From assembly GCA_902798975.1 (NCBI GenBank), contig CADBYT010000011.1:628-64627 (forward strand): a DNA stretch of 64,000 nt, written 5' to 3'. Shown one piece after another: positions 42,091-58,403 of the stretch. Numbering within the stretch: the stretch's first letter is position 1; every line of letters begins with the position of its first letter. The DNA comes from an uncultured Bacteroidia bacterium (lineage in GTDB: Bacteria > Bacteroidota > Bacteroidia > Bacteroidales > UBA932). Position numbers and translations under genes: made by a program. Under the pieces are notes generated by a model that worked only from the letters and a program-made list of their open reading frames with translations, did no database searches and was not told where the DNA came from.

Positions 42091-42099
42091 AAACCCGTC

Positions 42100-43278: not shown

Positions 43279-43303
43279 AATTATTGCTATCTTTGCAGCA
43301 CAG

Positions 43304-43816
43304 ATGAGACGCAATACTACAAAATGGCTGGGAGCCCTGATAGTGCTGGTCGTCCTCGCGGCGGGCTGTGGCGCGTTGCGCCAGAGCGCCGCTGAGCGCA
43401 AGGCCGAAGAGTCCCGCGTCGCGGCGCTCGTCCAGCAGAAGCTGGACGCCCGCAAGTACACGATCAAGGTCGATTTTATGAACCCCACCCGCGGTGCAAG
43501 CCGCAACGTCGGCGGGGAAGGCTACTCGCTGACCGTCGACGGCGACAAGGTCAACTCGCACCTGCCCTATGCGGGCGTCTCCACCTCCGTCCCTTACGGT
43601 GGCGGCAAGGTGCTTACGTTCGTGGACGATATCGATGAATACAAGGAGCTGCAGGCCAAATCCGATCGCCGCGTCTTCGTGTTCACGACCGACAACGACG
43701 AGGATGTCGTCACCTTCGAGGTGACCGTTTTCGACAATGGCCAGGCGGATATTTCGGTCCGCAGTCAGAACCGGGAACAGATTTCGTTCCGCGGCCAGCT
43801 CGAGACAGAGGAATAA
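43304..43816 (+). CDS. DUF4251-like lipoprotein
   Basis: Lipobox LAAGC; SHLPYAG, VPYGGG, VFDNGQA, ISFRG. Confidence 0.7.
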   Translation: MRRNTTKWLGALIVLVVLAAGCGALRQSAAERKAEESRVAALVQQKLDARKYTIKVDFMNPTRGASRNVGGEGYSLTVDGDKVNSHLPYAGVSTSVPYGGGKVLTFVDDIDEYKELQAKSDRRVFVFTTDNDEDVVTFEVTVFDNGQADISVRSQNREQISFRGQLETEE

Positions 43817-43819
43817 TCC

Positions 43820-44662
43820 TTATTCAGCGGATTTGCTCGACACGATGGCTGTCATGCCGGGCATGAGGTGCGGATGCGGCTTGAGCGCCGCTTCCAGATG
43901 CACCATGCCGTTCTTCTCCACCACGGGGCTGATGGCCGACACCCTGGCCTCGTGCACCTCGGCCGGGTAGGCGATGGAAATCACCTGGATGTCCGTCCCC
44001 GGCTGGAACTTGTGGAGTTCGTTTTCCAGCACGTCGAAACATACTTTCAGATGCTCGGTGTCCACGATGTAGAACAGGGGCACGCCGGGCGTGGCTGCGC
44101 TGTACAGCGTCGTCTCCACGCGGCTCACGGCACCCGTGAGGGGGGCGGTGATGGTGCAGTAGGTGAGCTCGTGCTCCAGCTGCTGCAGGGAGGCTTTCGC
44201 GGTGTTGTAGCCGCTGTTGATACGGGCCTGCCGCTTGATTTCCTCGGGAGCCTGCTCCAGCTCGTTGCGCTTGTAGCCCTGTCCCATCAGGATGGCCTGG
44301 TATTGGAATTCGGCCCGTTCCAGCTCCGCGCGGTTGCTGGCGATCCTGTCGTTCAGCGCGTCCGGGCTCAGCCGGACCACCACCTGGCCCTTGCGTACGC
44401 GCTGTCCCAGTTCGATGTCAAAGCTCACGATCTGCTCGTTGATCCGGCTGTACACCGGCACTTCGGTGACCGCCTGGATGGTTCCCTTGCTGGAGAATCC
44501 TTCCGCTTCGATGGTGCGCTGGAGGTTGGCCCCCTGCGCCTGGGGCGCGGCGGATTGCTCCGGAGCGGTGTCGGACGGGCCTTCCTGAACGGAAGCCGAC
44601 GGGCGGGATTGGCAGGCCGAAAAGACGGCGAGCAGGCAGATGAGAAGCGGAAGCCTATTCAT
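43820..44662 (-). CDS. Efflux periplasmic adaptor (RND-type MFP), lipoprotein
   Basis: Lipobox FSAC; GQRVRKGQ, coiled-coil segment, TITAPLTGAV, LMPGMT. Confidence 0.85.
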   Translation of the reverse strand: MNRLPLLICLLAVFSACQSRPSASVQEGPSDTAPEQSAAPQAQGANLQRTIEAEGFSSKGTIQAVTEVPVYSRINEQIVSFDIELGQRVRKGQVVVRLSPDALNDRIASNRAELERAEFQYQAILMGQGYKRNELEQAPEEIKRQARINSGYNTAKASLQQLEHELTYCTITAPLTGAVSRVETTLYSAATPGVPLFYIVDTEHLKVCFDVLENELHKFQPGTDIQVISIAYPAEVHEARVSAISPVVEKNGMVHLEAALKPHPHLMPGMTAIVSSKSAE

Positions 44663-46070
44663 ACTGGGTGAGGGTTAGCAGGTGGTAGTAGGTGGTCCAG
44701 TACCCGGCCAGGGCCGAGAGGTGCTGGTTGTAGGCGTTGTCCCGCCGGTTCTGGGCGAGGGAGTAGGTATTGATGTCGCAGAGGCCGTTGGCGTAGTTCT
44801 CGGCCGTGAGTTCGAATACCTCGTCGGCCAGGGCCACCGCCTCGGCGGTGTGGGCGAGCATCTGCTCGTGGGAGCGGAGATTGTCCATCGTCGTCCGCAC
44901 ATCTTCTTCTAGCGCGCGTTCCGCTTCCCGGAGGGCCTGTTCTTCGCGGGCGACCCAGGCGGCCGCGGCGGCATTTCCGCGTTTGGCGGCGCCGTGGTCC
45001 ATCAGCGGAATCCGCAGGGACACGGATCCCAGCATGAAGAACTGCGGGTGCTGGTAGGCGCCCAGGAAGGTGTTGCTGAGCTGCTGCATGCCCATGCTCA
45101 GGTCCACGCCCAGTTTCACGCCCTGCTCCCGGCGGGTCTTTTGCTGCTGCTGGAGCGCTTCGCTGAGTTCCGTCTGTTTCTGCAGGACGGCCGGGTTGTG
45201 GGTGCGGGCCATGTCGAGGGCGTCTTCTTCGGAAAGATAGACCATCCTGGTGTGCTCGGGAACCGGGAGCCGTCCGTCCAGGTAGTGATCGTCGGTGCGG
45301 AGGTAGGACGCCAGGGATTCCCGGGCCAGCTGCTCCTCGTTGCGGGCGTTCAGGAGCGCATTGGCGGCATTGAGCCGCTGCAGCTCCAGGGAGCGGAGTT
45401 CGGCCAGGGAGACCATGGCGATGCTCGCCTTCTCCTTGGCGATGGCGTACAGCGTGTCGGCCGTCTGCTTGTTGCGCAGGCACATGTCCAGCGTGCCCTG
45501 GGCGCAGGCCAGGCGGAAATAGCGGGCCGTGGCCTCTTCCGCGATGCGGCGCAGGCCGTAGTCGAGCTGCTTGCGCGCCGCTTCCAGCCGCTGGCTTTCG
45601 ACCGTCTTCTCCCAACGGTGGGGATTGTAACCCAGCAGGGGCTGCTGGTATCCGACGGCAAAGGGCAGCGCGACGATGTCCCGCGGCCGGTCGGCAGCGT
45701 CGCGGCCGAAATATTCGCTCCAGATGGCCTGGCTCTCCACATAGGCGTCACCGCCCCAGTTCAGGACCTTCTGGCTCAGCTTAAGCTGCGCGGCGGCGGA
45801 GAAACGGTCGTAGTTGCGCAGGTACACGTAGTTGCGCGTCGGATCGCTGATCAGGCGCTGGTAGTTGGGCGTGACGGTGAGCTCCAGCTGCGGCTTGCGG
45901 AGCGCCTCGAACTGGGCGTAGCGCTGCAGGTGGTATTCGAACTGGTAGCGGCTCTGGAAGGCCGTGAGGGTACTGTCCTGGGCCAGGCGGATCACCTCTT
46001 CCAGGCTCTGAGCCGGGCAGAGGAACGGAGCGCTCACAAGGAGGAGGATGCCGAAAAACCACTTTCTCAT
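44655..46070 (-). CDS. TolC-family outer-membrane channel
   Basis: Start re-assigned to MRKWFFGILL (ATGA overlap with the ABC gene); SLEEVIRLA, YQQPLLGYNP, SLRIPLMDHG, AENYANG. Confidence 0.88.
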   Translation of the reverse strand: MRKWFFGILLLVSAPFLCPAQSLEEVIRLAQDSTLTAFQSRYQFEYHLQRYAQFEALRKPQLELTVTPNYQRLISDPTRNYVYLRNYDRFSAAAQLKLSQKVLNWGGDAYVESQAIWSEYFGRDAADRPRDIVALPFAVGYQQPLLGYNPHRWEKTVESQRLEAARKQLDYGLRRIAEEATARYFRLACAQGTLDMCLRNKQTADTLYAIAKEKASIAMVSLAELRSLELQRLNAANALLNARNEEQLARESLASYLRTDDHYLDGRLPVPEHTRMVYLSEEDALDMARTHNPAVLQKQTELSEALQQQQKTRREQGVKLGVDLSMGMQQLSNTFLGAYQHPQFFMLGSVSLRIPLMDHGAAKRGNAAAAAWVAREEQALREAERALEEDVRTTMDNLRSHEQMLAHTAEAVALADEVFELTAENYANGLCDINTYSLAQNRRDNAYNQHLSALAGYWTTYYHLLTLTQYE

Positions 46071-48172
46071 ACCGTCTGCCGTTTGATGATGTCGGTGAAG
46101 AATCCGCCCTTGGCCAGCAGCTCCTCGTAGTTGCCGTCCTCGGCCACCTTGCCGTCCGCGAGGACGATGATGCGGTTGCACTGGCGTATGGTGCTCATAC
46201 GGTGCGCAATGGTGATGCGGGTGCACTTCATCTTGGCCAGGTTCTCCGTGATGATGTGCTGGCTGATGTTGTCCAGGGCCGAGGTGGCTTCGTCCAGGAA
46301 GACAATCTTGGGCTTGCGGATCAGGGCGCGGGCGATGAGGATGCGCTGGCGCTGGCCGCCGGACACGCCCTGGCCGTCGGCCGAGATGCGGGTGTCCAGC
46401 CCCAGCGGCATGCCCTGGAGATCCTTTTCCAGGGCTGCATTCCGGGCGGCTTCCCAGACGTCGTTGTCGTCGTGGCCGTCGTTGCCGAAGAGGATGTTGT
46501 CCCGGATGGTCCCTTCGATCAACTGCCCGTCCTGCAGGCAGATGCTCATGCAGTAACGGCGCAGGCTGGGCTTGTTGATATCGGACAGGTTGTGCTCGTC
46601 GTAGAAGATGGAGCCGTTCTCGGGTGTCTCGAATCCCAGCATCAGGCGCACCAGGGTGGACTTGCCGCAACCCGAAGGGCCCACCAGCGCCACATAGTCC
46701 CCGGCGCCGATGTGCAGGTTCAGGTTGTTGAAGAGGTAGGGCATTTCCTCGTCGTACCGGAACTTCAAGCCGCGGATGTCGATGTTGCCGCTCACGTCCT
46801 TGAGGAACACGGAGCCGTTCTCCGATTCCGATTCGGCTTCCAGGAGGGGGCTGCACAGCCGGATTTCCGGCGCCAGCTGCGCCAGGACCTTGGTGATGCG
46901 CTGGAACTGCTGGATGGCCTCGGTGGCAATCGCGAGCACGCTGCAATAGGCGATGTAGTCCGACAGGCCCAGTCCGTAGTGCCAGGCGGCCAGCATGGTC
47001 ACGATCAGCGGCACCATACGGAAATTGTAGCTGATGGAGTTGCTGTAGTTGAACAGCGCCGGATAGCGGCTGCCGTCGGGGTCGGACGGTTCGTAGGCTT
47101 CCGCCCAATGCCGGAAGGCCCGGATCTCGGCCCCGTTGGTGCGGATCTTCTGGCCGCCGGTCGTCAGGTTGTACAGCAGACCGGTCAGCTTGGAGGCGTA
47201 CCCGTTGGCCTGGTCCTGCACCTTCTTGCGGCAGGAGTACTGGACATAGATGGTGAGCATGTACAGCGCCATCACCAGGATGCCCGTCCAGAGCAGCGGT
47301 CCGCCGTAGGTAAAGAACTGGATGAACATCACTGCCGTGAACAGCAGGGTGAGGATGGTGGACAGCATGTCCTCCGTGAGCTGGGTGGAGAAGCGCACCA
47401 CCGCGAGAGCGCGGTTGGAAAGCTCTCCGGGGGAAAACTTTTTGAAGAATCCGGTGGGCAGCGACAGCAGGCGCGTCATGAGCGAAGACTGCATGGCGTA
47501 CTCGGTCTTGTCTTTCATTCTGACCACCAGGAAATTGCGGGACATCTGGACCATGACTAACCCGGCCGCCGCGCTGAACAGGAGCACGGCGATGGGAGTA
47601 ATCTGGGAGGCGTCGCCCGACGGGATGACCTCGTTGAAGAGCAGCTTGCACGCGTACGGCGTGAACATCGTGAGCAGCACCACGCCCAGGCAGGCCAGCA
47701 GGGCATAGATGCCGTCGTAAACGCTCAACTGGCGCAGGGAATGCGCCAGAAAGGAGCGGATGGTGAGCTTTTCCTTGGGCAGCGGGTAGCATAGGGTGAA
47801 GGCCTCCGGCTTGAGGAGGTCCATGTGCGTGCGGGCGTTGCAGCGATGCCCCGTCCGGGGATGGATAAAGGTATAGTCGGCGAAGCCGGGAGTGAGAATG
47901 ACCGGCGTGTCGTCATCGGCAGAGAAAGCCAGCAGCTTGCCCGTGCAGCGCGTCCACCATTTGCCTTCCAACTTGACCTGCCGGAAAAAGATCTGGTGCC
48001 GGTAGAACAGTTCTTCCAGCTGGTCGATGCTCTCCGGGATTTCCCGTTTCAGGGTGAGTTTCCTCCACACCCGGCGGTCGATCATGCCCCGGAAGAGCTC
48101 GGCCGCCTGGTTCATTGCCTTGCGGTCGCCTTCAATACGCTGGACCAATTGTTCGAAGAAGAGATTGTTCAT
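46067..48172 (-). CDS. NHLM-bacteriocin-type ABC transporter, second subunit (degenerate peptidase-like N-domain)
   Basis: RQVKLEGKWWTRCTGKLLAF, RLLSLPTGFFKKFSPGEL, GPSGCGKST, VSGGQRQR, LDEATSALD. Confidence 0.88.
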   Translation of the reverse strand: MNNLFFEQLVQRIEGDRKAMNQAAELFRGMIDRRVWRKLTLKREIPESIDQLEELFYRHQIFFRQVKLEGKWWTRCTGKLLAFSADDDTPVILTPGFADYTFIHPRTGHRCNARTHMDLLKPEAFTLCYPLPKEKLTIRSFLAHSLRQLSVYDGIYALLACLGVVLLTMFTPYACKLLFNEVIPSGDASQITPIAVLLFSAAAGLVMVQMSRNFLVVRMKDKTEYAMQSSLMTRLLSLPTGFFKKFSPGELSNRALAVVRFSTQLTEDMLSTILTLLFTAVMFIQFFTYGGPLLWTGILVMALYMLTIYVQYSCRKKVQDQANGYASKLTGLLYNLTTGGQKIRTNGAEIRAFRHWAEAYEPSDPDGSRYPALFNYSNSISYNFRMVPLIVTMLAAWHYGLGLSDYIAYCSVLAIATEAIQQFQRITKVLAQLAPEIRLCSPLLEAESESENGSVFLKDVSGNIDIRGLKFRYDEEMPYLFNNLNLHIGAGDYVALVGPSGCGKSTLVRLMLGFETPENGSIFYDEHNLSDINKPSLRRYCMSICLQDGQLIEGTIRDNILFGNDGHDDNDVWEAARNAALEKDLQGMPLGLDTRISADGQGVSGGQRQRILIARALIRKPKIVFLDEATSALDNISQHIITENLAKMKCTRITIAHRMSTIRQCNRIIVLADGKVAEDGNYEELLAKGGFFTDIIKRQTV

Positions 48173-48175
48173 GGG

Positions 48176-49903
48176 TCAAGCGTATTTCATGAGTTCGTGG
48201 TAGAGGCCTTCCTGCTGCATCAATTCCTCGTGGGTGCCTTGCTGCAGGATCTGCCCCTTCTCCATCACAAAGATGCAGTCGCAGTCGCGGATGGTGCTCA
48301 GTCGATGGGCGATGAGCACCATGGAGATGCCCAGGTTGCTGATGTGCCGCATCACCAGTTCTTCGGTCTTGGGGTCCAGGGCGGAGGTTCCTTCGTCCAT
48401 GATGAGGATGGAGGGATCCTTCGCCAGGGCGGTGGCGATTTCGATGCGCTGGCGCTGCCCGCCGCTGAAGTTCTTGCCGTTCTCGGTCAGCACGGACTGG
48501 TAGGCGCCGGGGCGTTCGGCGATCTCGTCGTGGATCTGGGCGTCGTGGGCGGCCATCACCATGGAGAAATCCTCGATGGACTCGTCCCACATCTTGATGT
48601 TGTCCGCGATGGTGCCTTCGAAGAGGGTGATGTCCTGGTTGACGACCGACAGGGAGTTGATCCTGACGGCGCGGTTCACCTGCTGCACGGGAATGCCGTC
48701 CAGCAGCACTTCTCCCTCCCAGGGCTCATAGAGCCCGGAAATGAGTTTGGCGATGGTGCTCTTGCCGCAGCCGGAGAAGCCCACGAAGGCGACACGCTCT
48801 CCCGCCTTGATCTTCAGGGAGAGATTCTGGATGACCGGGGGCAGGTTGCGGTCATAGCCGAAGGTCACGTTCCGCAGCTCGATGTCTCCCCGCAGCTTGG
48901 CATGTTCCGGAAGCTCTTCCAGGCTGGACAGCTCCAGGCTGTGCCCCTGGCAGGCGTCTTCCACCTCTTCCAGGCGCTCCATGGCGGCCTGGCTGCGGTA
49001 GACGCTCTGGGTGGACTTGACCGCCGAGTTGATGGGGTAGATAATGCTGGCGGCCAGGGCCTGCGAGGCCAGCAGCATACCCGGCGTCAGTTCTCCCTGC
49101 AGGATATACCAGGCGCCCAGGATCAGGATGAGGGCGTTGCTCAGCTGCAGGACCAGCAAGGGAATGGAGCCAGTTCCCATCATGCTCATGGTGGAGCGGA
49201 CCCGCACGTTGAGGGCCTGGACGAAGGATTCTTCCCACCTGCCGTAGAAGGCGCGTTCGCCGCCCATGGACTTGATGGTCTCCATGTTCTTCATGCCCGT
49301 CATCGTCACGCTCTGCAGGCGGGCGTCGGTGACTTCCGTTCCCTTGGCCTTTTTCTTCATGCTCTCAGCCGTGACGCGCATCACGATGACGAGGATGGAC
49401 ATGGACAGCAGCACCACCAGCCCGAGTTTCCAGCTGTACATCATCAGCAGCGCGGCACTGATGATGGATTGCACGATGAAGATGAGGCCGATGGAGAACT
49501 GGTCCATCGTGCGCGTGATGCTGGTGATGCTGGAGTAGCGGGCCACCAGCTCGCCGGACGTGAAACGGTCCAGCGTCAGCATGGGCAGCTCCAGGATGCT
49601 CAGGACAAAGCGGGACGAGCTGAGGAGTCCCATCTTGGTAAAATGCCTTCTGCGAAGGAGGTTCATGGACATCCACACGCCCAGTTCCAGCAGGAACAGC
49701 AGGATGTAGCAGGCCATCAGGGGCCCGAACCATTCCGGATTCTTCCGGGTGATGATGTTGTCGGTGTAGATCTGTTGGAAGAAGGGAGCCAGCAGGTAGG
49801 CGACGATGTCCACAAAATACAGCAGGAACGTGACCCAGTAGAAGGCCATGCATCCCCGCATGAAATGACGGATGAGCGCCGCTGTGGACTTGTTCTTACT
49901 CAT
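48176..49903 (-). CDS. NHLM-bacteriocin-type ABC transporter, first subunit, lacking the C39 peptidase domain
   Basis: Begins directly with the TMD; GMKNMETIKSMG, GFSGCGKSTIAKLISGLYEPW, FSGGQRQRIEIA. Confidence 0.88.
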   Translation of the reverse strand: MSKNKSTAALIRHFMRGCMAFYWVTFLLYFVDIVAYLLAPFFQQIYTDNIITRKNPEWFGPLMACYILLFLLELGVWMSMNLLRRRHFTKMGLLSSSRFVLSILELPMLTLDRFTSGELVARYSSITSITRTMDQFSIGLIFIVQSIISAALLMMYSWKLGLVVLLSMSILVIVMRVTAESMKKKAKGTEVTDARLQSVTMTGMKNMETIKSMGGERAFYGRWEESFVQALNVRVRSTMSMMGTGSIPLLVLQLSNALILILGAWYILQGELTPGMLLASQALAASIIYPINSAVKSTQSVYRSQAAMERLEEVEDACQGHSLELSSLEELPEHAKLRGDIELRNVTFGYDRNLPPVIQNLSLKIKAGERVAFVGFSGCGKSTIAKLISGLYEPWEGEVLLDGIPVQQVNRAVRINSLSVVNQDITLFEGTIADNIKMWDESIEDFSMVMAAHDAQIHDEIAERPGAYQSVLTENGKNFSGGQRQRIEIATALAKDPSILIMDEGTSALDPKTEELVMRHISNLGISMVLIAHRLSTIRDCDCIFVMEKGQILQQGTHEELMQQEGLYHELMKYA

Positions 49904-50763
49904 TCGAAACGGAGTTTGGCGCCCCGGAAGCGCGTCCGGGTTTCTTCGAACAGGTATTGGAACATGCTGCGGCGCCGGGTTTCACTCAGCACCGAGCAGT
50001 AGGTGCCCACGTTCATGTTGACGTTCCGGGGTTCGCCGAAGGACCAGTCGTAGCGGGTCGGGTCCGTCGGAGAAGTGAACAATTCGATACTGACCTGGTA
50101 CATCATTTCTCCCGAGGCCAGCAGCCGGCGCGCCATCTCTTCGCTCTTGAGCGTTTGGCTCACCTCGCTCGCGGTCACGGGGTAGCGGTCGACGCGCACC
50201 ACTTTCCCCTTGACATAGCCGATCTCGTCCCGTTTCTCATTCTCCGGCCACACCTGCGCCATCATCCCCTCGCGCAGATCGCGCTGGCCGGCATTGTCGA
50301 TGTAGGCGATGAGCATGGCGCGCTGCGACTGTTCATTGCCGCCGACCACGCTGATGATGGGCTCGAAGGCCTCGAAAGGCTCGTTGTCGTCCTTGGTGCT
50401 GATCACCGTCCCGTCCACCGTGCTGGTCAGGATGCTGTAGCTGTCCTCCATGGAGATGAGGGCCAGCGTCTGCCCCTGAGAGACGTGGTCTCCGTTGCGC
50501 ACGAACACGGTGCGGACCATGCCCCGGTTGGGCAGCGACACGTCCGTCGTGCCCTCGAGGGGGAACACCACACCGCTGTAATAGACCTTGTCCGAAACGC
50601 TTCCGAGGAATCCCCACACGAAGAAGGCGATCATCAGCAGCAGGGCCGTGCATGCGAGAAGGTACGTCGGCAGCGCCGTGACTTTGAGGGTGTTGCCAAT
50701 CTGGTCGGGGGACTGCAGCCGTTGCTCTCGGCTCTCAGCGGAAAGAGGGTTCCGGTCAGCCAT
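49900..50763 (-). CDS. NHLM-type secretion protein (short HlyD-like adaptor)
   Basis: QRLQSPDQIGNTLKVT, TM ending WGFLGSV, GYVKGKVVRVDRYPVT, YDWSFG, ETRRRSMFQYLF. Confidence 0.8.
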   Translation of the reverse strand: MADRNPLSAESREQRLQSPDQIGNTLKVTALPTYLLACTALLLMIAFFVWGFLGSVSDKVYYSGVVFPLEGTTDVSLPNRGMVRTVFVRNGDHVSQGQTLALISMEDSYSILTSTVDGTVISTKDDNEPFEAFEPIISVVGGNEQSQRAMLIAYIDNAGQRDLREGMMAQVWPENEKRDEIGYVKGKVVRVDRYPVTASEVSQTLKSEEMARRLLASGEMMYQVSIELFTSPTDPTRYDWSFGEPRNVNMNVGTYCSVLSETRRRSMFQYLFEETRTRFRGAKLRFE

Positions 50764-50775
50764 GGGATGTGGGAT

Positions 50776-51627
50776 TTATTTTCTCTTCTTGCTGTAGATG
50801 TAGTGCTTGTATCCCACCTGGACGGAGAGGAAGTCTACGTTGCGGGCAATCTTGAAATTGTTGATATGGGCGTTGTTGTTCGTTTTTTCCTTGTGCTGCT
50901 GGGTATGGCTGTAAGTAGCGCCGACGAGCGGGACGCTGATGGTCACGGCGCTGTTGTCCCTCAGGCGGATGCACAGGCCGGCGGCCAGCTTCAGGCCGGC
51001 GGAGTAGACGTCCGACGTGCGCAGTTTGGTCTCCACATAGGCGCCATTTTCGTCAATCGGGCAGGAGATGGTGCGTCCGTAGTTGCCATACAGGCGGACT
51101 TCGCCGAAAATGGCGAAGGTACGGCTGCCGAAGAAAGAGATGTATTTGCGCAGGTCCGTCGAGATGCCCCAGGCGTTGTGCACCATGTGGCGGTTGGAGA
51201 TGCGGAGGTTCAGGAGATCGTCCAGTTCCTGCTTCAGTTCCGGATCGTCACCGGCCAGCTCGCCCAGGTTGACGACGTTGCGAAGGTCCAGGCGCAGGTC
51301 GGTGTTCAGCGTGTATCCGCTGTAGTCCAGTCGGATGCCCAGGGCGAGGTCGTCTGCCACGAAAAAGGAGAAGCGCGGGCTGACGTTGTAGACGGACAGG
51401 CGTCCCTGGCCGATGTTCAGCAGGGACATGATGGCGTAGCCGTCTCCGAGCACGTCTCCGCCGATGTCTAAGCTCCGGTATGCACCCGAGATGCCGATGG
51501 CGCGGCCTCCTTTCTCAATAAAAGTGATTTTGCCTGTTACCGGATCGTCGAAGCGGTCGAGGATACCCTGTCCCAGGGCGTTGATGGACAAAAGGCACAG
51601 CAGCGTGAGGCAGAAAATTCTCTTCAT
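50776..51627 (-). CDS. Outer-membrane beta-barrel protein, first gene of the exporter operon
   Basis: Signal peptide; amphipathic strands (VSPRFSFFVADDLALGIRLDY, LRKYISF, VQVGYKHYIY). Confidence 0.65.
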   Translation of the reverse strand: MKRIFCLTLLCLLSINALGQGILDRFDDPVTGKITFIEKGGRAIGISGAYRSLDIGGDVLGDGYAIMSLLNIGQGRLSVYNVSPRFSFFVADDLALGIRLDYSGYTLNTDLRLDLRNVVNLGELAGDDPELKQELDDLLNLRISNRHMVHNAWGISTDLRKYISFFGSRTFAIFGEVRLYGNYGRTISCPIDENGAYVETKLRTSDVYSAGLKLAAGLCIRLRDNSAVTISVPLVGATYSHTQQHKEKTNNNAHINNFKIARNVDFLSVQVGYKHYIYSKKRK

Positions 51628-51704
51628 AGGTTACGTGTTTTGTTTTAGAATGCGGCTATTTCAACAAAAATGATGTTTTTTTATGAAAAAACAAAATGGC
51701 GTTG

Positions 51705-51712
51705 TATTTTTG
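51705..51712 (+). promoter_or_regulatory. -7 promoter (TAttTTTG) for the large exported protein
   Basis: 10 nt upstream of ATG 51723 in an AT-rich divergent intergenic region. Confidence 0.55.
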
Positions 51713-51722
51713 GTCGTTTATT

Positions 51723-54700
51723 ATGCGTAGACTACTTTACCCGCTTCTCGTCCGTGTGCTGCTGGTTGTAGGACTGACGGCAGCATGGACGCCGGCCATG
51801 GCGACGCCCTATATCCGGGACGTGATGCTGGTCGGCGGAAGCGCGGAGGAAATAGTAACATGGACGGCTACGCTGATCCCGCAAGGTTGGAAAATGATCG
51901 GCCAGGACCTGAACAAGGGGGCCGGAGGCGATTACGTCCATCTGTTCTACAAGACGGAAAGCATCGACGACGGTTTTAACTACGGCGCCATCACGGGTTT
52001 CATCATCGCCAAGAATTATTCCGACAAGATAGAATACGAAGGTCGTTCCTACTTTCCCGTTCCCTACGATGGCGGGACCAGCTTCAAAACCAGCAAGGGC
52101 AACGTCAACAACGGCACAGGCGGCACGAACATTTATCTTTACTACACCCGCGACTACTTTTCGGACAAGCGTGTCGTTACCGGCATCTTTTTCAACAGCA
52201 CCCCGACGGGTGCAGTACGCTCGATCAACAGCACGACCTTCAACAACTGGGGTTATAGCCTGAATGCCGGCAACAACGGAGATCTCATCTATATGCACGT
52301 CACCACCGCCACGGCCCTGGAGCCCGTGCAGATAGGCAACGGTACGACCGGTACGGACTTCATTCCTTTCTATTTGGGTAATACTTCTTATCCCTATTCC
52401 CTGTCGCAACAGATCTATACAGCCGAAGAGATCGGAACGGCCGGCAGCATCAAAGCCATTTCCTTCTTCCACCGGAAGGATGACATGTCATTGAATATGA
52501 ATGGAGTCCAAATCTATATGAAGCACACGGACAAGGATTCCTTTTCCGGAACGGATCTGGATCCGAAGGAGGGCTTCACCAAGGTATTTGATGGGAATAT
52601 CGCTGTCTCCGGCCAGCAATGGCTGACGATCATTCTGGACACGCCTTTCAATTATGACGGCAACAGCAACCTGATGATCTGCTGCTACGTCCCTGTAGTC
52701 ACCTCGCCGCAGCCGCACGGCAACACGTTTTCGTATCATTATGCCGACAACAAGATGCGTCGTGTGGCTTCCGGCTCGCCCATCAATTGGAACAACCAGC
52801 AATTGACTGGAAGCAGCGCAACGATGCGCAACAACATCCGGATCAACATCGTTCCCAACCCTTATCGCAATCCCGTCAGTCTGGCCGTAACGGAGCTTTC
52901 GGACAATGCGGCGACCGTAAGCTGGCAGGCGCCTGCAGGTGAGCATCCCACCATTCAACGCTATGAATGGCAGTACAAAAAGTCCACGGATGCAGCCTGG
53001 TCAGGCCAGACCTCCACGAGCGGCACGAGCGCATCCTTCAACGGGTTGTCGGCTTTCACTGAATACCAGTTCCGCGTCAAAATCATTTATGCCGGCGGAG
53101 AAAGCAGTTTTTCCCTCCTGCGTTTCACCACGGCCGTGTCACTGCCTCACTTCTGCGGTTTTGAAAACGGAATGCCCGGCTGGAGCCAGGCGAACCACAA
53201 TCACCTCTTGAACATTGACTATACCGGCATCTTCGGGGAAGCCAAACACGAGGGGAATTATGGCTATAAGTTCCAGCCCTACAGCGATGAAACGCCCCAA
53301 TATCTGATCAGTCCCCGGCTGCCGGGAAACACCGCTGTCAGGGTGTCGTTCTATTATTGCAGGAGCTCCACCTCGGCTTCACAGATTGGAAAATTCAAAG
53401 TGGGCTACTCCACTTCGACCAGCGATATCAACGATTTCCACTGGGAAGACGAACTGACCGTTGAGGGATCAGACTGGATGCAGTACGACAAGGACTTTCC
53501 TTCCGGTACCCGCTTCGTGGCCATTCAATCCTATGCCCAGAATACCGATCTGTATCTGGATGACTTCCAATTTGATGCATACTCCTCCCTGGCCAGACCC
53601 ACGGGTCTTTCCGTGAGCGAGTTGGGCGATCAGCGCGTTACGCTGAAGTGGAATGCAGCCGACGGAGCCACGGAGTATGTCTATCAATACCGGACGGAGA
53701 ATGCCGACAGCTGGTCGTCCGAGGCATCCGTGAGCGGCACAAGCGTAACCCTTAACGGCCTGACGGCCAACACGACCTATGTGTTCCGCGTCAAAGCCCA
53801 CTACGCCAGTGGATACAGCAATTTTGTGACTTTCCAGTTCCTGACCGAAGGTCCGATGGTGGACATCCCGCATTCGCAGGATTTCGAGAACGGGATGGGG
53901 GGCTGGCGCCTGGAAAACGGGTCCGGCCGGTCGGGCATCTCCACACGTGCGAAACACGGAGGTTCGTATAGTTTCGAATTCGACGAAGGAAGTCCGGAAG
54001 CCCAATGCCTTCGCTCCCCCCTGCTGCAAGGGAACGGTGCAGAGAAGGTGGTCTCGTTCTATTTCAAGAACCATGCTGAGAATCCTGAGCCGGGAAGCTC
54101 GTCGCTCATTTCGTATGCCTCCTCTTTCCAGGTGGGCTGGTCCACGAATACCAATCAACTCTCCGACTTTGTCGGAACCACGGAACTGGCAGCCGAGAAC
54201 GGGGAGTGGGTGCATTTCTCGCTTCAGGTACCGGCAGACGCCAAATACGTCATGATCCGGGTCAAAGACCATCAGGCCTGGCTCTACGTGGATGACATCA
54301 GTATCACGACGGTTCCCCAGCCCGTAGCCACGGCAGCCAGCGTGATGGGCGATATCCAGTATGCCGCCACATTCTATGACGGGTCCCGGAGCTGGCAGCT
54401 GCCGAAAGGCGGGCTGGCATACACGGTTCAGCAGGAAGGCAATGATTACGTGTTTTACTGCATCGGCGACGTGATTCCGGCCGGAAAGCCGGTGATCATC
54501 CTGCTGGACAAGCAGGCGGGAGACACGGGATCCACCAAGGTCATCCCGCTGAGTGTGACAAGCTATACCAATGTGCCCGTCCTGTACAATATCCTGATAG
54601 GAACGGATTCGCCGGTGACTGTCAGCAACGGCAAGATAGGGAATGATAAGGTATATGTATTAGGCATCAAGAACGGGAAACTGGGATTCTATCCCTTCTC

Positions 54701-54746
54701 CGGAAACGCGATCCCGGCAGGGAAAGCTTATATTTTGGGTGAATGA
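51723..54746 (+). CDS. Large exported protein: MABP-like beta-prism, beta-sandwich, 2x FN3, 2x cleaved-adhesin/MAM-like, C-terminal KAY domain
   Basis: Sec signal (TPAMA); repeats DLNKGAGGDYVHLFY / NVNNGTGGTNIYLYY / SLNAGNNGDLIYMHV; SQQIYTAEEIG; ATVSWQ..YQFRVK; GFENG..W..YLISP..LYLDDF; ends IPAGKAYILGE. Confidence 0.75.
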   Translation: MRRLLYPLLVRVLLVVGLTAAWTPAMATPYIRDVMLVGGSAEEIVTWTATLIPQGWKMIGQDLNKGAGGDYVHLFYKTESIDDGFNYGAITGFIIAKNYSDKIEYEGRSYFPVPYDGGTSFKTSKGNVNNGTGGTNIYLYYTRDYFSDKRVVTGIFFNSTPTGAVRSINSTTFNNWGYSLNAGNNGDLIYMHVTTATALEPVQIGNGTTGTDFIPFYLGNTSYPYSLSQQIYTAEEIGTAGSIKAISFFHRKDDMSLNMNGVQIYMKHTDKDSFSGTDLDPKEGFTKVFDGNIAVSGQQWLTIILDTPFNYDGNSNLMICCYVPVVTSPQPHGNTFSYHYADNKMRRVASGSPINWNNQQLTGSSATMRNNIRINIVPNPYRNPVSLAVTELSDNAATVSWQAPAGEHPTIQRYEWQYKKSTDAAWSGQTSTSGTSASFNGLSAFTEYQFRVKIIYAGGESSFSLLRFTTAVSLPHFCGFENGMPGWSQANHNHLLNIDYTGIFGEAKHEGNYGYKFQPYSDETPQYLISPRLPGNTAVRVSFYYCRSSTSASQIGKFKVGYSTSTSDINDFHWEDELTVEGSDWMQYDKDFPSGTRFVAIQSYAQNTDLYLDDFQFDAYSSLARPTGLSVSELGDQRVTLKWNAADGATEYVYQYRTENADSWSSEASVSGTSVTLNGLTANTTYVFRVKAHYASGYSNFVTFQFLTEGPMVDIPHSQDFENGMGGWRLENGSGRSGISTRAKHGGSYSFEFDEGSPEAQCLRSPLLQGNGAEKVVSFYFKNHAENPEPGSSSLISYASSFQVGWSTNTNQLSDFVGTTELAAENGEWVHFSLQVPADAKYVMIRVKDHQAWLYVDDISITTVPQPVATAASVMGDIQYAATFYDGSRSWQLPKGGLAYTVQQEGNDYVFYCIGDVIPAGKPVIILLDKQAGDTGSTKVIPLSVTSYTNVPVLYNILIGTDSPVTVSNGKIGNDKVYVLGIKNGKLGFYPFSGNAIPAGKAYILGE

Positions 54747-55693
54747 TGAAAAGAGGCTTGCTAATAGGAATCGCACTGGCTTGTGTGTGGACCGGTTGCA
54801 TGGAAGAGGAACTGTTGCCGGAGGAGCAGACCGCCGAGGCGGCGTCCGAGTGGACGTTGACTTTGCAGGCGGTGAAGCAGGATGCGTCTGAAACGAAGGG
54901 GCTGGCCATCGGAGGGGGAGATTCAGAGGCGAGCACCACGATCCTGCAGTCCATCTGGAAGGCCGACGAGCCGGTGGAAGTCTATCTGGCGGGTACGCAT
55001 ATCGGTACCCTGACGGCGACGCCCGACGCCACGAATGCTCACTATGCGACCCTCTCCGGAACCGTCACCACGACCGGCATCAATCCCGGGACGACAGAAC
55101 TTACCCTGCTCACTCCCCGTCAGGAATGGGATTACACCGGGCAGGTAGGCCGGCTTCTGCTGCATGACGATCCCAACAATAAGGTGGAAGACAACCGGTC
55201 CATCGAAAAGAAATACCATTACACCATGGCCGAAAACGTCCTGGTGACGGCCGCTTCCAACGGAACCATCACCACGGACCAGGCATCTTTTGCCAATCAG
55301 CAGAGCATCTATCGGCTCAACTTCCGTTTCCAGCACAACGGAACGGGCAACAAGTACAACATCACCGCCAAGCGGATTTGGATTGCGGCCGAGGGCGGCG
55401 GACTGGTGAAGACCCGGACATTGGGCAGTTCTTCCGTCACCGGCACCATCGAGGTTCTTTTGGACAATTCCACCGAGAATCCTTTCTTCGTCGCCCTTCG
55501 CAACAACAATACGACAACGGAAGAAAAGCTCGTGTTCAAGGTGATGGACAGTGAAGGCATCACCTACTTCGGCACCAAGACCATCCCCGCTGAGTACAAA
55601 CCCAACGGAACTTTCGTGAGTATGAAAAACGCCACCCTCACCGGGCGCCTGGAATTAGCCCTCCATACAGAAACGGTAACGGAGGCTTTATAA
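54743..55693 (+). CDS. Fimbrillin/type V pilin-like lipoprotein
   Basis: Lipobox WTGC, acidic linker, first strand WTLTLQAVK, ETK|G, WKADEPVEVY, FANQQSIYRLNF; ATGA overlap with the upstream gene. Confidence 0.6.
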   Translation: MMKRGLLIGIALACVWTGCMEEELLPEEQTAEAASEWTLTLQAVKQDASETKGLAIGGGDSEASTTILQSIWKADEPVEVYLAGTHIGTLTATPDATNAHYATLSGTVTTTGINPGTTELTLLTPRQEWDYTGQVGRLLLHDDPNNKVEDNRSIEKKYHYTMAENVLVTAASNGTITTDQASFANQQSIYRLNFRFQHNGTGNKYNITAKRIWIAAEGGGLVKTRTLGSSSVTGTIEVLLDNSTENPFFVALRNNNTTTEEKLVFKVMDSEGITYFGTKTIPAEYKPNGTFVSMKNATLTGRLELALHTETVTEAL

Positions 55694-55727
55694 TTAATCA
55701 GGTAACAGATAAAGTTGCAGCAACCAA

Positions 55728-55856
55728 TTACGGTTCATTCAGATCGCCGTAATGATAATCTTCGGTCGACGGACTCCCGCACACAATCCCCTCCACCTTC
55801 ACCTCCACCACGGAGACAGAAGGGGCCTCATACGGTTCTTTGTTGCAACTAAACAC
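55728..55856 (-). CDS. 42-aa peptide with YxxP leader motif and ExxxCxS
   Basis: GTG start: MFSCNKEPYEAPSVSVVEVKVEGIVCGSPSTEDYHYGDLNEP; own TAtaTTTG promoter at 55877-55884. Confidence 0.65.
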   Translation of the reverse strand: MFSCNKEPYEAPSVSVVEVKVEGIVCGSPSTEDYHYGDLNEP

Positions 55857-56000
55857 TTCTAACCAAAATCTGTTGCCAAATATACTGATTATCAAGGAAA
55901 CCGCCAAAAGCCCCAATCAGAACAACATATTCCACGCGGCCTGCTGCGCCCTTGCACTGTGGGCGGCATTCATCTTGCCGAAGTTCACATTTATACTATT

Positions 56001-56030
56001 CCACAAAATTGTGGACCACAAAATTGTGGA
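56001..56030. repeat. Tandem 15-bp repeat CCACAAAATTGTGGA x2 (each quasi-palindromic)
   Basis: Read directly; lies downstream of the tRNA. Confidence 0.8.
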
Positions 56031-56147: not shown

Positions 56148-56151
56148 GATG

Positions 56152-56239
56152 CGGAGAGGACGAGATTCGAACTCGTGGTACGCTTGAGACGTACGTCGGT
56201 TTAGCAAACCGGTGGTTTCAGCCACTCACCCACCTCTCC
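56152..56239 (-). tRNA. tRNA-Ser(GCT)
   Basis: GGAGAGG...CCTCTCC-G acceptor stem, anticodon loop TT-GCT-AA, long variable arm, GTTCGAATC T-loop; CCA not encoded; promoter TAacTTTG at 56290-56297. Confidence 0.96.
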
Positions 56240-58197: not shown

Positions 58198-58217
58198 TCC
58201 TTTCCAAGTTCAACAAG

Positions 58218-58337
58218 CACTACTAAATTCGCTTTATCTGTTTTATTCAACCACCTGATTGTCAGGTGGTTGATTTTTTCATTCCACTACTATTTCATTC
58301 TTGCCGGCGGAAGGGATATTGCATCCGTCTATATTTG
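58218..58337 (+). promoter_or_regulatory. susC upstream region: CACTACTA direct repeats flanking a palindrome with 12-bp arms, then TAtaTTTG
   Basis: CACTACTA at 58218 and 58285; TCAACCACCTGA-ttg-TCAGGTGGTTGA at 58247-58273; -7 element at 58330-58337. Confidence 0.6.
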
Positions 58338-58403
58338 CCGTCGACACAAGGTCGAAAACCTTTGACTTTTAATAACCAACGCACACAACTTTTCAAAAAG
58401 CGT

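What the first reader, a model, noticed from the sequence alone, without database searches (positions are those of the whole stretch)
43820..55884. Candidate new system: enzyme-free NHLM-type type I exporter with beta-barrel, adhesin, pilin-like lipoprotein and leader-bearing peptide
Seen: a tightly coupled six-gene operon (beta-barrel, short NHLM-HlyD, ABC1, ABC2, TolC, second MFP) diverges from a 1007-aa MABP/FN3/adhesin protein and an overlapping pilin-like lipoprotein. A convergent YxxP peptide gene and tRNA-Ser follow. Known: NHLM transporter trios normally accompany nitrile-hydratase- or Nif11-leader precursors and YcaO, LanM or radical-SAM enzymes. None of these is in the window. Inference: the bacteriocin exporter has been repurposed, either to export the small peptide (matured in trans) or to surface-display the adhesin and pilin, which have no T9SS tail. 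The substrate cannot be determined from sequence alone.
Basis: partly seen in the sequence, partly recalled or inferred. Interest (0 to 1): 0.85.

Follow-up and report, generated by a model that had tools for sequence, protein, structure and literature searches.

The report
Peptidase-less orphan peptide-exporter cassette, rumen Bacteroidales
The real unit is a conserved five-gene ABC export pump that descends from a bacteriocin (RiPP) exporter and has lost its leader-cutting peptidase; the neighbouring adhesin-like protein, lipoprotein and small peptide ORF are not conserved partners and are unlikely to be its cargo.

Summary
The six tightly coupled minus-strand genes are real. Comparative data split them into a five-gene cassette and a lineage-specific add-on.

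- **Cassette:** a hairpin-less, membrane-anchored HlyD; ABC1 without a C39 peptidase; ABC2 with a probable degenerate C39-like domain; a TolC-type OEP; and a lipoprotein RND-type adaptor.
- **Conservation:** the five genes keep the same order in about 50 rumen or herbivore-gut Bacteroidales species. No other neighbour is shared by more than 6 of 57 loci.
- **Barrel gene:** it is coupled to the cassette only in the window's closest lineage. Its homologues elsewhere sit in unrelated contexts.
- **Adhesin-like protein and lipoprotein:** both carry Sec or lipoprotein signals and are not conserved neighbours.
- **YxxP peptide ORF:** it looks non-coding (GC3 0.57 against 0.80-0.88 for real genes).
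- **Ancestry:** relatives with all five parts exist in which ABC1 keeps C39. One of them sits beside a Nif11-like precursor, a GG peptide and a radical-SAM/SPASM maturase. On an ABC1 tree the C39-less forms make one clade nested inside the C39-bearing ones.

This is a derived, orphan NHLM-type exporter, a new variant of a known kind. Its cargo is unknown. I favour an uncleaved peptide encoded elsewhere or made by other organisms. The earlier-scan note on exporter architecture agrees with this reading. The lasso-leader reading of the peptide ORF is not supported.

The parts
49900..50763 (-). G2: short HlyD-type adaptor (287 aa) with an N-terminal membrane anchor and no alpha-helical hairpin
   Evidence: TIGR03794 scores 129 bits against a cut-off of 156, in two stretches. 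Residues 110-262 match model positions 254-406, and the N-terminal stretch matches TIGR01843 positions 6-75, so about 140 central model positions are absent. It is 52-88% identical in 56 species loci.
48176..49903 (-). G3: ABC1, permease plus ATPase (575 aa), lacking the C39 peptidase domain
   Evidence: TIGR03796 positions 138-709 only, 555 bits against a cut-off of 853. The open frame is 601 aa. Its 49 orthologues are 571-606 aa long. Walker A, signature, Walker B (DE) and H-loop are intact. The C39-less forms make one clade nested inside C39-bearing ABC1.
46067..48172 (-). G4: ABC2, permease plus ATPase (701 aa), with an N-terminal domain of about 135 aa (nt ~47768-48172) that is probably a degenerate C39-like domain
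   Evidence: TIGR03797 positions 27-685, 591 bits against a cut-off of 709. The N-terminal model has three helices and a six-stranded sheet. Its top structural matches are the PCAT1, HlyB, ComA and LahT C39/CLD domains: Foldseek E 5e-3 to 0.1 and VIA Z 5-6.2 over 104-109 residues. The alignment shows no invariant His and no Cys in the helical part.
44655..46070 (-). G5: TolC-family outer-membrane efflux protein (471 aa) with a signal peptide
   Evidence: PF02321 OEP, two repeats, E 1.8e-21. Conserved in the cassette at 47-84% identity.
43820..44662 (-). G6: lipoprotein periplasmic adaptor of RND_mfp type (280 aa) with a short alpha-hairpin
   Evidence: TIGR01730 scores 102 bits against a cut-off of 95. 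It aligns to TriA, MacA and MexJ through the lipoyl, hairpin and barrel regions. The lipobox Cys is invariant in all orthologues.
50776..51627 (-). G1: small outer-membrane beta-barrel (283 aa). A lineage-specific upstream add-on, not part of the conserved cassette.
   Evidence: AF2 pLDDT 79 with about 10 long strands. Foldseek matches OmpW, OprG, OmpA and OmpT at E about 1e-5. It is coupled to HlyD in the window and in a sister lineage (63% identity, context). It is loosely linked in L033 and absent from the other cassette loci. Its homologues sit beside an MS channel, a sigma factor or TamB elsewhere.
51696..54746 (+). G7: 1016-aa secreted multidomain surface-type protein (beta-prism/MABP-like N-terminus, two FN3 domains, CBM-like modules). 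An unrelated neighbour.
   Evidence: fn3 E 1e-20; weak CBM_4_9. Residues 61-99 match Mpf2Ba1 at E 4e-8. It has an N-terminal signal peptide. GC3 is 0.69. No homologue in 56 cassette loci.
54743..55693 (+). G8: 316-aa lipoprotein of no known family, overlapping the G7 stop by 4 nt. An unrelated neighbour.
   Evidence: Lipobox ...VWTGC followed by MEEE. No Pfam, NCBIfam or PDB match. One homologue (34% identity) lies near the cassette in L012, paired with a different giant surface protein.
55728..55916 (-). G9: 62-codon ORF (the 'YxxP peptide'), probably not a gene
   Evidence: GC3 0.57 and overall GC 0.48, against GC3 0.80-0.88 for neighbouring genes. No tblastn match in 56 loci. No family hit.
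56151..56239 (-). tRNA-Ser (GCT), followed by a hairpin plus T-run
   Evidence: ARAGORN; sequence read.

Best explanation
**What it is.** The functional unit is a self-contained five-gene, envelope-spanning ABC exporter (window 43820-50763). It descends from the NHLM class of RiPP and bacteriocin exporters.

**Proposed mechanism**
- ABC1 and ABC2 form a heterodimeric pump. Both have intact ATP-site motifs.
- Cargo docks at the degenerate C39-like domain that only ABC2 retains. Because ABC1 has lost its C39 peptidase, no leader is cut.
- The membrane-anchored HlyD has no hairpin and surrounds the pump.
- The lipoprotein adaptor supplies the alpha-hairpin that reaches the TolC-type channel.

**Status of the neighbours.** The cassette is an orphan. 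It travels without precursor or maturase genes, sits at different genomic places, and is patchily spread among herbivore-gut Bacteroidales. The barrel gene is a local add-on. G7, G8 and the small ORF are bystanders.

**Shown:** gene content, conservation, loss of C39, nesting within C39-bearing relatives, and lack of conserved neighbours.

**Inferred:** heterodimer formation, the split-adaptor assembly, and cargo docking at the C39-like domain.

**Biological role (open).** An uncleaved peptide made elsewhere in the genome, about 0.35. Expulsion of foreign or competitor peptides, that is immunity or resistance, about 0.3. Small molecules, about 0.25.
For: - The order HlyD-ABC1-ABC2-OEP-MFP2 with tight spacing is kept in about 50 of 56 species loci at 47-90% identity.
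- The same five parts occur in a permuted order in Ca. Cacconaster at 29-42% identity, among sugar-metabolism genes.
- No ORF cluster outside the cassette is shared by more than 6 of 57 loci. There is no conserved upstream small ORF.
- L081 carries a GG peptide, a Nif11-like 113-aa precursor, a rSAM/SPASM maturase, a short HlyD, ABC1 with C39 (944 bits, above the 853 cut-off), ABC2 (724 bits, above 709), a 278-aa RND-type adaptor and an OEP. L080 has the same five parts with C39.
- All five window proteins are 31-43% identical to the L080 and L081 counterparts.
- On the ABC1 tree rooted with ABC2, the 49 C39-less sequences form one clade (SH-aLRT 99) inside the C39-bearing ones.
- The ABC2 N-terminal fold best matches C39/CLD domains.
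- No NHLP or Nif11 leader reaches its cut-off in the own genome or in five carriers. No C39, YcaO or LanC was found in the own genome.
- Only G000 among 401 sampled genomes of the order has the HlyD, and 0 of 3 same-genus genomes do.
Against: - No cargo has been identified.
- The C39-like assignment rests on a mediocre model (mean pLDDT 65) and middling scores (Z 5-6.2, Foldseek E at or above 5e-3).
- Heterodimer formation and two-adaptor assembly are inferred from co-occurrence only.
- The own genome is only 71% complete, so an unlinked precursor or peptidase could be missed.
- The barrel gene is translationally coupled in the window's own lineage, so it may have a local role I cannot exclude.
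- The tree is a quick search with long branches for the few C39-bearing outgroups.
Confidence: 0.6

Rival explanations
1. One reading: the exporter has been repurposed to export the neighbouring YxxP peptide, or to surface-display the adjacent adhesin-like protein and lipoprotein.
For: The genes are physically adjacent and divergently arranged in this window. A G8 homologue also lies near the cassette in one related locus, L012.
Against: - G7 and G9 are absent from all 56 cassette loci, and G8 is present in one.
- A sister lineage that has both barrel and cassette carries AraC and an MS channel upstream instead of G7/G8.
- G7 has a Sec signal peptide. G8 has a lipobox followed by acidic residues, which is the pattern Bacteroidota use for surface lipoproteins (my own knowledge). 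Both would leave the cytoplasm by Sec, not through an ABC type I route.
- G9 has GC3 0.57, against 0.80-0.88 for real genes.
- G7 and G8 have GC3 0.69 and 0.72, which suggests a separate origin.
Confidence: 0.04
2. A general small-molecule (multidrug, plant-toxin or ionophore) tripartite efflux pump that merely descends from a peptide exporter.
For: - There is no linked peptide or enzyme in any locus.
- The peptidase is lost.
- An RND-type adaptor and an OEP are typical of drug pumps.
- The nearest solved full-length ABC homologues by sequence are ABCB1-type multidrug exporters.
- Restriction to one habitat and a patchy spread fit a selectable resistance trait.
Against: - The N-terminal C39-like domain of ABC2 is retained and conserved, with 11 invariant and 28 nearly invariant columns across 28-84% identity. 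In HlyB and PCAT-type systems this domain handles peptide cargo (PMC6363468).
- The closest family models are the bacteriocin-export ones.
- Carriers include wild deer and reindeer, so feed ionophores alone cannot explain the spread.
Confidence: 0.25
3. A decaying remnant of a RiPP cluster with no current function.
For: C39, the precursor and the maturase have been lost relative to L081.
Against: - All five genes are intact, with overlapping start and stop codons.
- Both ABC proteins have canonical Walker A, Walker B, signature and H-loop motifs.
- Identity is 47-90% across about 50 species, and no stops were seen inside the aligned genes, apart from a few truncated or rearranged loci (L036, L055, L059).
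Confidence: 0.03

Closest known systems
NHLM (NHLP/Nif11-class) RiPP export trio, TIGR03794/TIGR03796/TIGR03797 (Haft et al. 2010, PMC2887384)
   Same: The best-scoring family for HlyD, ABC1 and ABC2. The paired ABC1 and ABC2 paralogues are encoded after a HlyD-type protein. The ABC2 N-terminal region is covered by the family model.
   Different: - All three scores are below the curated cut-offs.
- ABC1 lacks the defining C39 peptidase.
- HlyD lacks about 140 central (hairpin) positions.
- A lipoprotein adaptor and an OEP are added.
- There are no NHLP or Nif11 precursors and no maturases beside it or in the genomes tested.
Five-part C39-bearing relatives found here in metagenome contigs (L081, L080)
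   Same: The same five components: a short HlyD with the same two-stretch TIGR03794 match, ABC1, ABC2, a ~278-aa RND-type adaptor and an OEP. Identity to the window proteins is 31-43%.
   Different: - ABC1 keeps the C39 domain with its QMExxECGAASL motif.
- In L081, ABC1 and ABC2 pass the NHLM cut-offs. In L080, ABC1 falls just short (826 against 853).
- L081 has a Nif11-like precursor, a GG peptide and a rSAM/SPASM maturase directly upstream.
- The gene order is MFP2 then OEP, not OEP then MFP2.
HlyB-HlyD-TolC type I secretion system
   Same: An ABC exporter with a non-catalytic N-terminal C39-like domain, a periplasmic adaptor and a TolC-family channel. HlyB is among the best structural matches to the ABC2 N-terminus.
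   Different: HlyB is a homodimer, and HlyD has a long hairpin and is the only adaptor. The substrate gene is normally in the operon and carries a C-terminal signal. Here there is a heterodimer in which only one CLD is retained, two adaptors and no linked substrate.
PCAT1 / ComA / LahT peptidase-containing ABC transporters
   Same: The same transmembrane and ATPase architecture. PCAT1 matches ABC1 at E 4e-72. Its peptidase domain is the top structural match to the ABC2 N-terminus.
   Different: Those cut a double-glycine leader during export. The window system has no catalytic Cys/His pair anywhere.
TriABC-OpmH (two-adaptor RND pump) and BesA (hairpin-less adaptor)
   Same: Precedents for two different adaptors in one operon and for an adaptor without a hairpin (PMC8277102). 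The fused TriA-TriB chain is the best PDB sequence match to G6.
   Different: Those are RND, proton-driven pumps. Here the energiser is an ABC heterodimer, and the two adaptors belong to different subfamilies: one HlyD-type and membrane-anchored, one RND-type lipoprotein.

Membership tests
NHLM RiPP export system (TIGR03794/03796/03797) | ABC1 carries an N-terminal C39 double-glycine peptidase | tested here: not met
   Only model positions 138-709 are matched. The open frame is 601 aa. HlyD coding sequence lies directly upstream. All 49 orthologues are 571-606 aa.
NHLM RiPP export system (TIGR03794/03796/03797) | Each of the three proteins scores above the curated equivalog cut-off | tested here: not met
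   HlyD 129.1 against 156.2; ABC1 554.8 against 853.3; ABC2 590.9 against 709.4.
NHLM RiPP export system (TIGR03794/03796/03797) | Co-occurrence with NHLP (TIGR03793) or Nif11-type (TIGR03798) precursors | tested here: not met
   No match at E<=1 in the own genome, which is 71% complete. Nothing above the cut-off in five carrier genomes. No conserved small ORF beside 53 loci.
NHLM RiPP export system (TIGR03794/03796/03797) | Descent from the same ABC1/ABC2/HlyD lineage | tested here: met
   These are the best family hits for all three proteins. On the ABC1 tree the window's clade is nested inside C39-bearing ABC1, one of which (L081) passes the NHLM cut-off.
Type I secretion system (HlyB/HlyD/TolC type) | ABC exporter with an N-terminal C39-like, non-catalytic domain | tested here: inconclusive
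   The ABC2 1-165 model has mean pLDDT 65. Matches to HlyB and PCAT1 reach Z 6.0-6.2 and Foldseek E 5e-3. The hits are consistent but weak.
Type I secretion system (HlyB/HlyD/TolC type) | A single HlyD-type adaptor with a long alpha-helical hairpin | tested here: not met
   G2 lacks the central ~140 positions of TIGR03794. TIGR01843 matches positions 6-75 only. A second, RND-type adaptor is present.
Type I secretion system (HlyB/HlyD/TolC type) | TolC-family outer-membrane factor | tested here: met
   PF02321, two repeats, E 1.8e-21.
Type I secretion system (HlyB/HlyD/TolC type) | Substrate gene in or beside the operon, lacking an N-terminal signal peptide | tested here: not met
   No conserved neighbour. 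The local candidates G7 and G8 have N-terminal signal or lipoprotein peptides.
MacAB-TolC type tripartite ABC efflux pump | MacB/FtsX-type permease with a large periplasmic domain | tested here: not met
   Both permeases are ABC_membrane (PF00664) exporter-type.
Two-adaptor tripartite pumps (TriABC-OpmH) | Two distinct periplasmic adaptor genes in one operon with an OMF | tested here: met
   G2 and G6 co-occur with G5 in about 50 loci, and in L080, L081 and L062 despite different gene orders.
Two-adaptor tripartite pumps (TriABC-OpmH) | RND inner-membrane transporter | tested here: not met
   The cassette contains no RND gene. The energiser genes are two ABC half-transporters.

The most novel reading that the evidence does not exclude
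Two ideas fall under this heading.
- A peptide exporter that has shed its peptidase, precursor and maturase now circulates among herbivore-gut Bacteroidales as a stand-alone module. It either expels competitors' RiPP bacteriocins (an 'orphan immunity' pump) or secretes an uncleaved signal peptide encoded elsewhere.
- It uses a split-adaptor design not described for ABC exporters. A hairpin-less, membrane-anchored HlyD grips the pump, and a separate lipoprotein adaptor supplies the hairpin that opens the TolC-type channel.
Probability: 0.3. Interest if true: 0.6.

Novelty: new variant of a known kind. Interest (0 to 1): 0.4.

Why it matters
- **Annotation.** Genome pipelines call these proteins generic 'ATP-binding cassette domain-containing protein' or 'bacteriocin exporter with double-glycine peptidase'. 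The second name is wrong for this clade. A five-part, C39-less subfamily could be given its own models.
- **Biology.** An exporter kept at 50-90% identity in about 50 rumen species, with no linked cargo, points to an unrecognised trait in rumen competition. That trait could be peptide resistance, signalling or toxin tolerance.
- **Mechanism.** The pairing of a hairpin-less HlyD with a hairpin-bearing lipoprotein adaptor would show how an ABC peptide exporter with a hairpin-less HlyD reaches across an outer membrane.
- **Tractability.** It is testable in a cultured carrier, Xylanibacter ruminicola KHT3.

Tried and rejected
- **Complex prediction.** The periplasmic parts of G2 and G6 were submitted (searches found the machine busy; submitted; collected). 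The result was 'no answer' (score 0.00) and is not evidence either way.
- **Same-genus synteny.** DNA comparison to map an insertion boundary found only the tRNA and SusC-type matches, because the genus is too diverged. Protein searches for the barrel gave only 26-34% homologues, and DUF4251 gave none.
- **Family searches for G1 and G8.** Pfam, NCBIfam and PDB sequence searches, including E up to 10 and a scan of 25 barrel homologues, found nothing usable.
- **Upstream peptide gene.** No conserved small ORF was found in the 400 nt before HlyD in 53 loci.
- **Conserved regulator.** An AraC-type gene abuts the cassette in L012 and lies near it in one sister contig, but it is not generally present.
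- **My own Q8-x5-E14-G15 reading.** I considered this a relic of the C39 Q-x5-C-G motif and dropped it. The model is unreliable for residues 1-17, and the structural alignment puts the Cys position elsewhere.
- **Canonical NHLM loci elsewhere in the phylum.** 22 of 401 sampled genomes had them. The three I inspected have the long-HlyD trio, and no homologue of the cassette's second adaptor or OEP scored above 60 bits in the ~19-kb regions. They are therefore not the direct model for this cassette.
- **Literature.** Four searches found no description of this variant.
Full report
**1. What is in the sequence**

The window has 61% GC, so long spurious ORFs are common. I chose genes by family hits and codon-position GC.

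Six genes lie head to tail on the minus strand:

| Gene | Coordinates | Size | Identity |
|---|---|---|---|
| G1 | 50776-51627 | 283 aa | outer-membrane beta-barrel |
| G2 | 49900-50763 | 287 aa | short HlyD-type adaptor |
| G3 | 48176-49903 | 575 aa | ABC1 |
| G4 | 46067-48172 | 701 aa | ABC2 |
| G5 | 44655-46070 | 471 aa | TolC-type OEP |
| G6 | 43820-44662 | 280 aa | lipoprotein adaptor |

The junctions are a 12-nt gap, a 4-nt overlap, a 3-nt gap, a 4-nt overlap and an 8-nt overlap.

Diverging from G1 are G7 (51696-54746, 1016 aa) and G8 (54743-55693, 316 aa), which overlap by 4 nt. A 62-codon ORF, G9 (55728-55916, minus strand), and tRNA-Ser (56151-56239, minus strand) follow.

**2. Family assignments**

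- G2, G3 and G4 hit the NHLM families TIGR03794, TIGR03796 and TIGR03797 best. All three fall below the curated cut-offs: 129 against 156, 555 against 853, and 591 against 709 bits.
- G3 aligns only to model positions 138-709, so the C39 peptidase is missing. The stop-to-stop frame is 601 aa, and G2 coding sequence lies directly upstream, so there is no room for a hidden peptidase.
- G2 matches TIGR03794 in two stretches, with about 140 central positions absent. Those positions are the helical hairpin.
- G5 is an OEP/TolC-family protein.
- G6 passes the RND_mfp model. It aligns to TriA, MacA and MexJ across the lipoyl, short-hairpin and barrel regions, and it has a lipobox.
- Both ABC proteins keep Walker A, the signature motif, Walker B with the catalytic Glu, and the H-loop.
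- G1 has no family hit, but it folds confidently as a small outer-membrane barrel (pLDDT 79). Its nearest structures are OmpW, OprG, OmpA and OmpT.

**3. The ABC2 N-terminal domain**

Residues 1-156 of G4 have no PDB sequence match.

I modelled residues 1-165 from a 32-sequence alignment. The mean pLDDT is 65, and the core (residues 60-130) reaches about 72-89. The model has three helices followed by a six-stranded sheet.

- Foldseek's top hits are the HlyB C39-like domain, HlyB/D, PCAT1, a Vibrio C39-like domain, ComA and LahT. E-values run from 5e-3 to about 0.1.
- VIA-align gives Z 6.2 to PCAT1 (109 residues, rmsd 4.1) and Z 6.0 to HlyB (104 residues, rmsd 3.9).

These scores are middling. 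However, the hits are consistent, they sit at the equivalent position of homologous transporters, and the layout matches the published description of C39 domains (PMC8277102).

The alignment has no invariant His and no conserved Cys in the helical part. I read this as a probable non-catalytic C39-like domain. In HlyB such a domain tethers the cargo (PMC6363468).

**4. Are the neighbours conserved?**

- A scan of one genome per species found 56 loci encoding a relative of G2. Almost all come from rumen or other herbivore-gut Bacteroidales: Ca. Cryptobacteroides, Prevotella, the cultured Xylanibacter ruminicola KHT3, and Ca. Cacconaster from horse.
- tblastn with all nine window proteins shows G2-G3-G4-G5-G6 in the same order and spacing in essentially every locus long enough to hold them. 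Identity is 47-90%.
- G7 and G9 are found in none, G8 in one (L012, 34%) and G1 in one (L033, 45%).
- All-against-all clustering of every ORF of 30 aa or more in the 57 loci finds no family outside the cassette in more than 6 loci.
- The 400 nt upstream of HlyD hold no recurring small ORF.
- Barrel homologues at 44-68% identity lie beside a mechanosensitive channel, a sigma factor or TamB, with no transporter nearby.
- There is one exception. In a sister lineage (HlyD 86% identical) a 282-aa gene overlaps the HlyD start. A partial copy from the same lineage is 63% identical to G1. That contig has AraC and an MS channel upstream, not G7/G8.

The barrel is therefore a lineage-specific add-on, and G7, G8 and G9 are bystanders.

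**5. Why G7, G8 and G9 are poor cargo candidates**

- G7 begins with a Sec signal peptide.
- G8 has a lipobox Cys followed by MEEE. Acidic residues after the lipidated Cys are the known surface-export signal of Bacteroidota lipoproteins (my own knowledge, not tested here).
- Both would therefore cross the inner membrane by Sec. ABC type I exporters take cargo from the cytoplasm.
- G7 does have two FN3 domains and a segment matching the beta-prism domain of Mpf2Ba1. 'MABP/FN3 adhesin-like' is a fair description.
- G8 has no detectable family, so 'pilin-like' is untested.
- In L012 a G8 homologue is paired with a quite different giant surface protein carrying Listeria-Bacteroides repeats and GLUG motifs.
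- G9 has GC3 0.57, against 0.80-0.88 for all surrounding genes. It has no homologue in the loci searched. I regard it as non-coding.
- G7 and G8 have GC3 0.69 and 0.72, which hints at a separate origin.

**6. Where the cassette comes from**

A profile search of 1.8 billion representative proteins found many short, single-stretch HlyD relatives, alongside the canonical ~420-aa ones that carry an inserted hairpin. Their contexts are informative:

| Locus | Content |
|---|---|
| L078, L076 | short HlyD, ABC1 with C39, ABC2; L078 adds two 88-aa ORFs and a radical-SAM enzyme |
| L081 | 43-aa GG-type peptide (TIGR03949 above cut-off), 113-aa Nif11-like peptide (E 1e-6, just under cut-off), rSAM/SPASM maturase, short HlyD (same two-stretch match as G2), ABC1 with C39 (944 > 853), ABC2 (724 > 709), 278-aa RND-type adaptor, OEP |
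| L080 | the same five parts, with C39 |
| L079, Ca. Cacconaster (L062, L064) | C39-less |

All five window proteins are 31-43% identical to their L080 and L081 counterparts.

An ABC1 tree rooted with ABC2 paralogues places all 49 C39-less sequences in one clade (SH-aLRT 99). That clade is nested within the C39-bearing ones, which indicates a single loss. This is a quick search, and the outgroup branches are long.

The two-adaptor-plus-OEP design is therefore inherited from a RiPP exporter. What is new in the window's clade is the loss of the peptidase and of the linked precursor and maturase.

**7. Distribution**

- In 401 genomes sampled evenly across the order, only the window's own genome has the HlyD. 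Three same-genus genomes of 99-100% completeness lack it.
- Prevotellaceae fall into two separate clades on the ABC1 tree.
- This patchiness, together with the restriction to herbivore guts, fits horizontal spread plus loss. I have not tested that formally.
- Canonical NHLM ABC1 (above the cut-off) occurs in 22 of 401 sampled genomes of the phylum. The three I inspected have the long-HlyD trio, and no homologue of the cassette's second adaptor or OEP scored above 60 bits in the ~19-kb regions.

**8. Precursors or enzymes in trans?**

- The own genome is 71% complete. It has no NHLP or Nif11 leader at E<=1, and no C39, YcaO or LanC-like gene. It has only two weak (28% identity) radical-SAM matches to the L081 maturase.
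- Five carrier genomes, including the cultured strain, have no NHLP or Nif11 leader above the cut-off. Two of them carry unrelated PCAT-type C39 transporters.
- A canonical NHLP cluster supplying the substrate is therefore not seen. Incompleteness forbids a firm negative.

**9. Mechanism proposed**

- **Shown:** five co-inherited genes encoding two ABC half-transporters, two different adaptors and an OMF; no peptidase; no linked cargo.
- **Inferred, from the NHLM family's paired ABC1/ABC2 genes, HlyB, PCAT1, TriABC and BesA (PMC2887384, PMC6363468, PMC8277102):**
  - ABC1 and ABC2 form a heterodimer.
  - The ABC2 C39-like domain binds a peptide cargo that is exported uncut.
  - G2 rings the pump in the inner membrane.
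  - G6 bridges to G5 with its hairpin.
- **Role:** the biological role is open. I split it roughly as own unlinked peptide 0.35, protection against foreign peptides 0.3, small-molecule efflux 0.25, and neighbour cargo or dead remnant below 0.1.

**10. Verdict**

The proposed system boundary and cargo are not supported. The cassette is a new variant of a known kind: an orphan, peptidase-less, five-part NHLM-type exporter. It is of moderate interest, mainly for its split-adaptor architecture and its unexplained maintenance in rumen Bacteroidales.

I found no paper describing this variant. An earlier scan note on the exporter architecture (e1-5521765) agrees with what I measured. The lasso-leader reading of the small ORF (e1-5521767) is not supported.

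Noticed in passing
L081:3-9568: A metagenome contig carries what looks like a complete diderm RiPP cluster. It has a GG-type 43-aa peptide, a 113-aa Nif11-like precursor, a rSAM/SPASM maturase, a short HlyD, ABC1 with C39, ABC2, an RND-type lipoprotein adaptor and an OEP. It is the best available model of the ancestor of the window's cassette.
   Followed up: partly
window 56001-56029: Just downstream of tRNA-Ser and its hairpin, two adjacent copies of CCACAATTTTGTGG occur one base apart. The arms CCACAA and TTGTGG are inverted repeats. This could be an operator or recombination site.
   Followed up: no
L012:4573-5652 and the 13.4-kb contig: An AraC-family regulator gene abuts the cassette in the nearest Ca. 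Cryptobacteroides locus, where it overlaps the HlyD start. One lies upstream of the barrel gene in a sister lineage. It is not found near the cassette in other loci.
   Followed up: partly
window 51696-55693 and L012:2-4198: G8-family lipoproteins (34% identity) are paired with large but unrelated surface proteins in two genomes. The partner is MABP/FN3/CBM-like here and has Listeria-Bacteroides repeats, Calx-beta and GLUG in L012. This may be a lipoprotein-plus-variable-adhesin module in its own right. G7 and G8 have lower GC3 (0.69 and 0.72) than their neighbours.
   Followed up: partly
window 39637-43816: Convergent on the cassette's end are a DUF5117/DUF4953 Met-zincin (817 aa), a DUF4421 protein and a DUF4251 protein. 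On the other side lie a DUF6377 regulator-like protein and a SusC-type TonB-dependent receptor (56569-61556). There is no integrase or transposase within about 8 kb on either side.
   Followed up: partly
L070:10001-15391; L065:1286-4807: Homologues of the G1 barrel sit immediately upstream of a TamB-family gene in one Bacteroidales MAG. In several contigs they sit upstream of an ~890-aa mechanosensitive-channel gene. The same MS-channel family lies near the barrel in the sister lineage that also has the cassette.
   Followed up: no
G001 (Xylanibacter ruminicola KHT3) C21:1392-1836 and C23:1705-1892: Tandem small ORFs of 41-64 aa weakly match the double-glycine end of the NHLP leader model (E about 0.02). 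The genome also has a separate C39-bearing ABC transporter (C30). This is probably an unrelated GG-bacteriocin locus.
   Followed up: no
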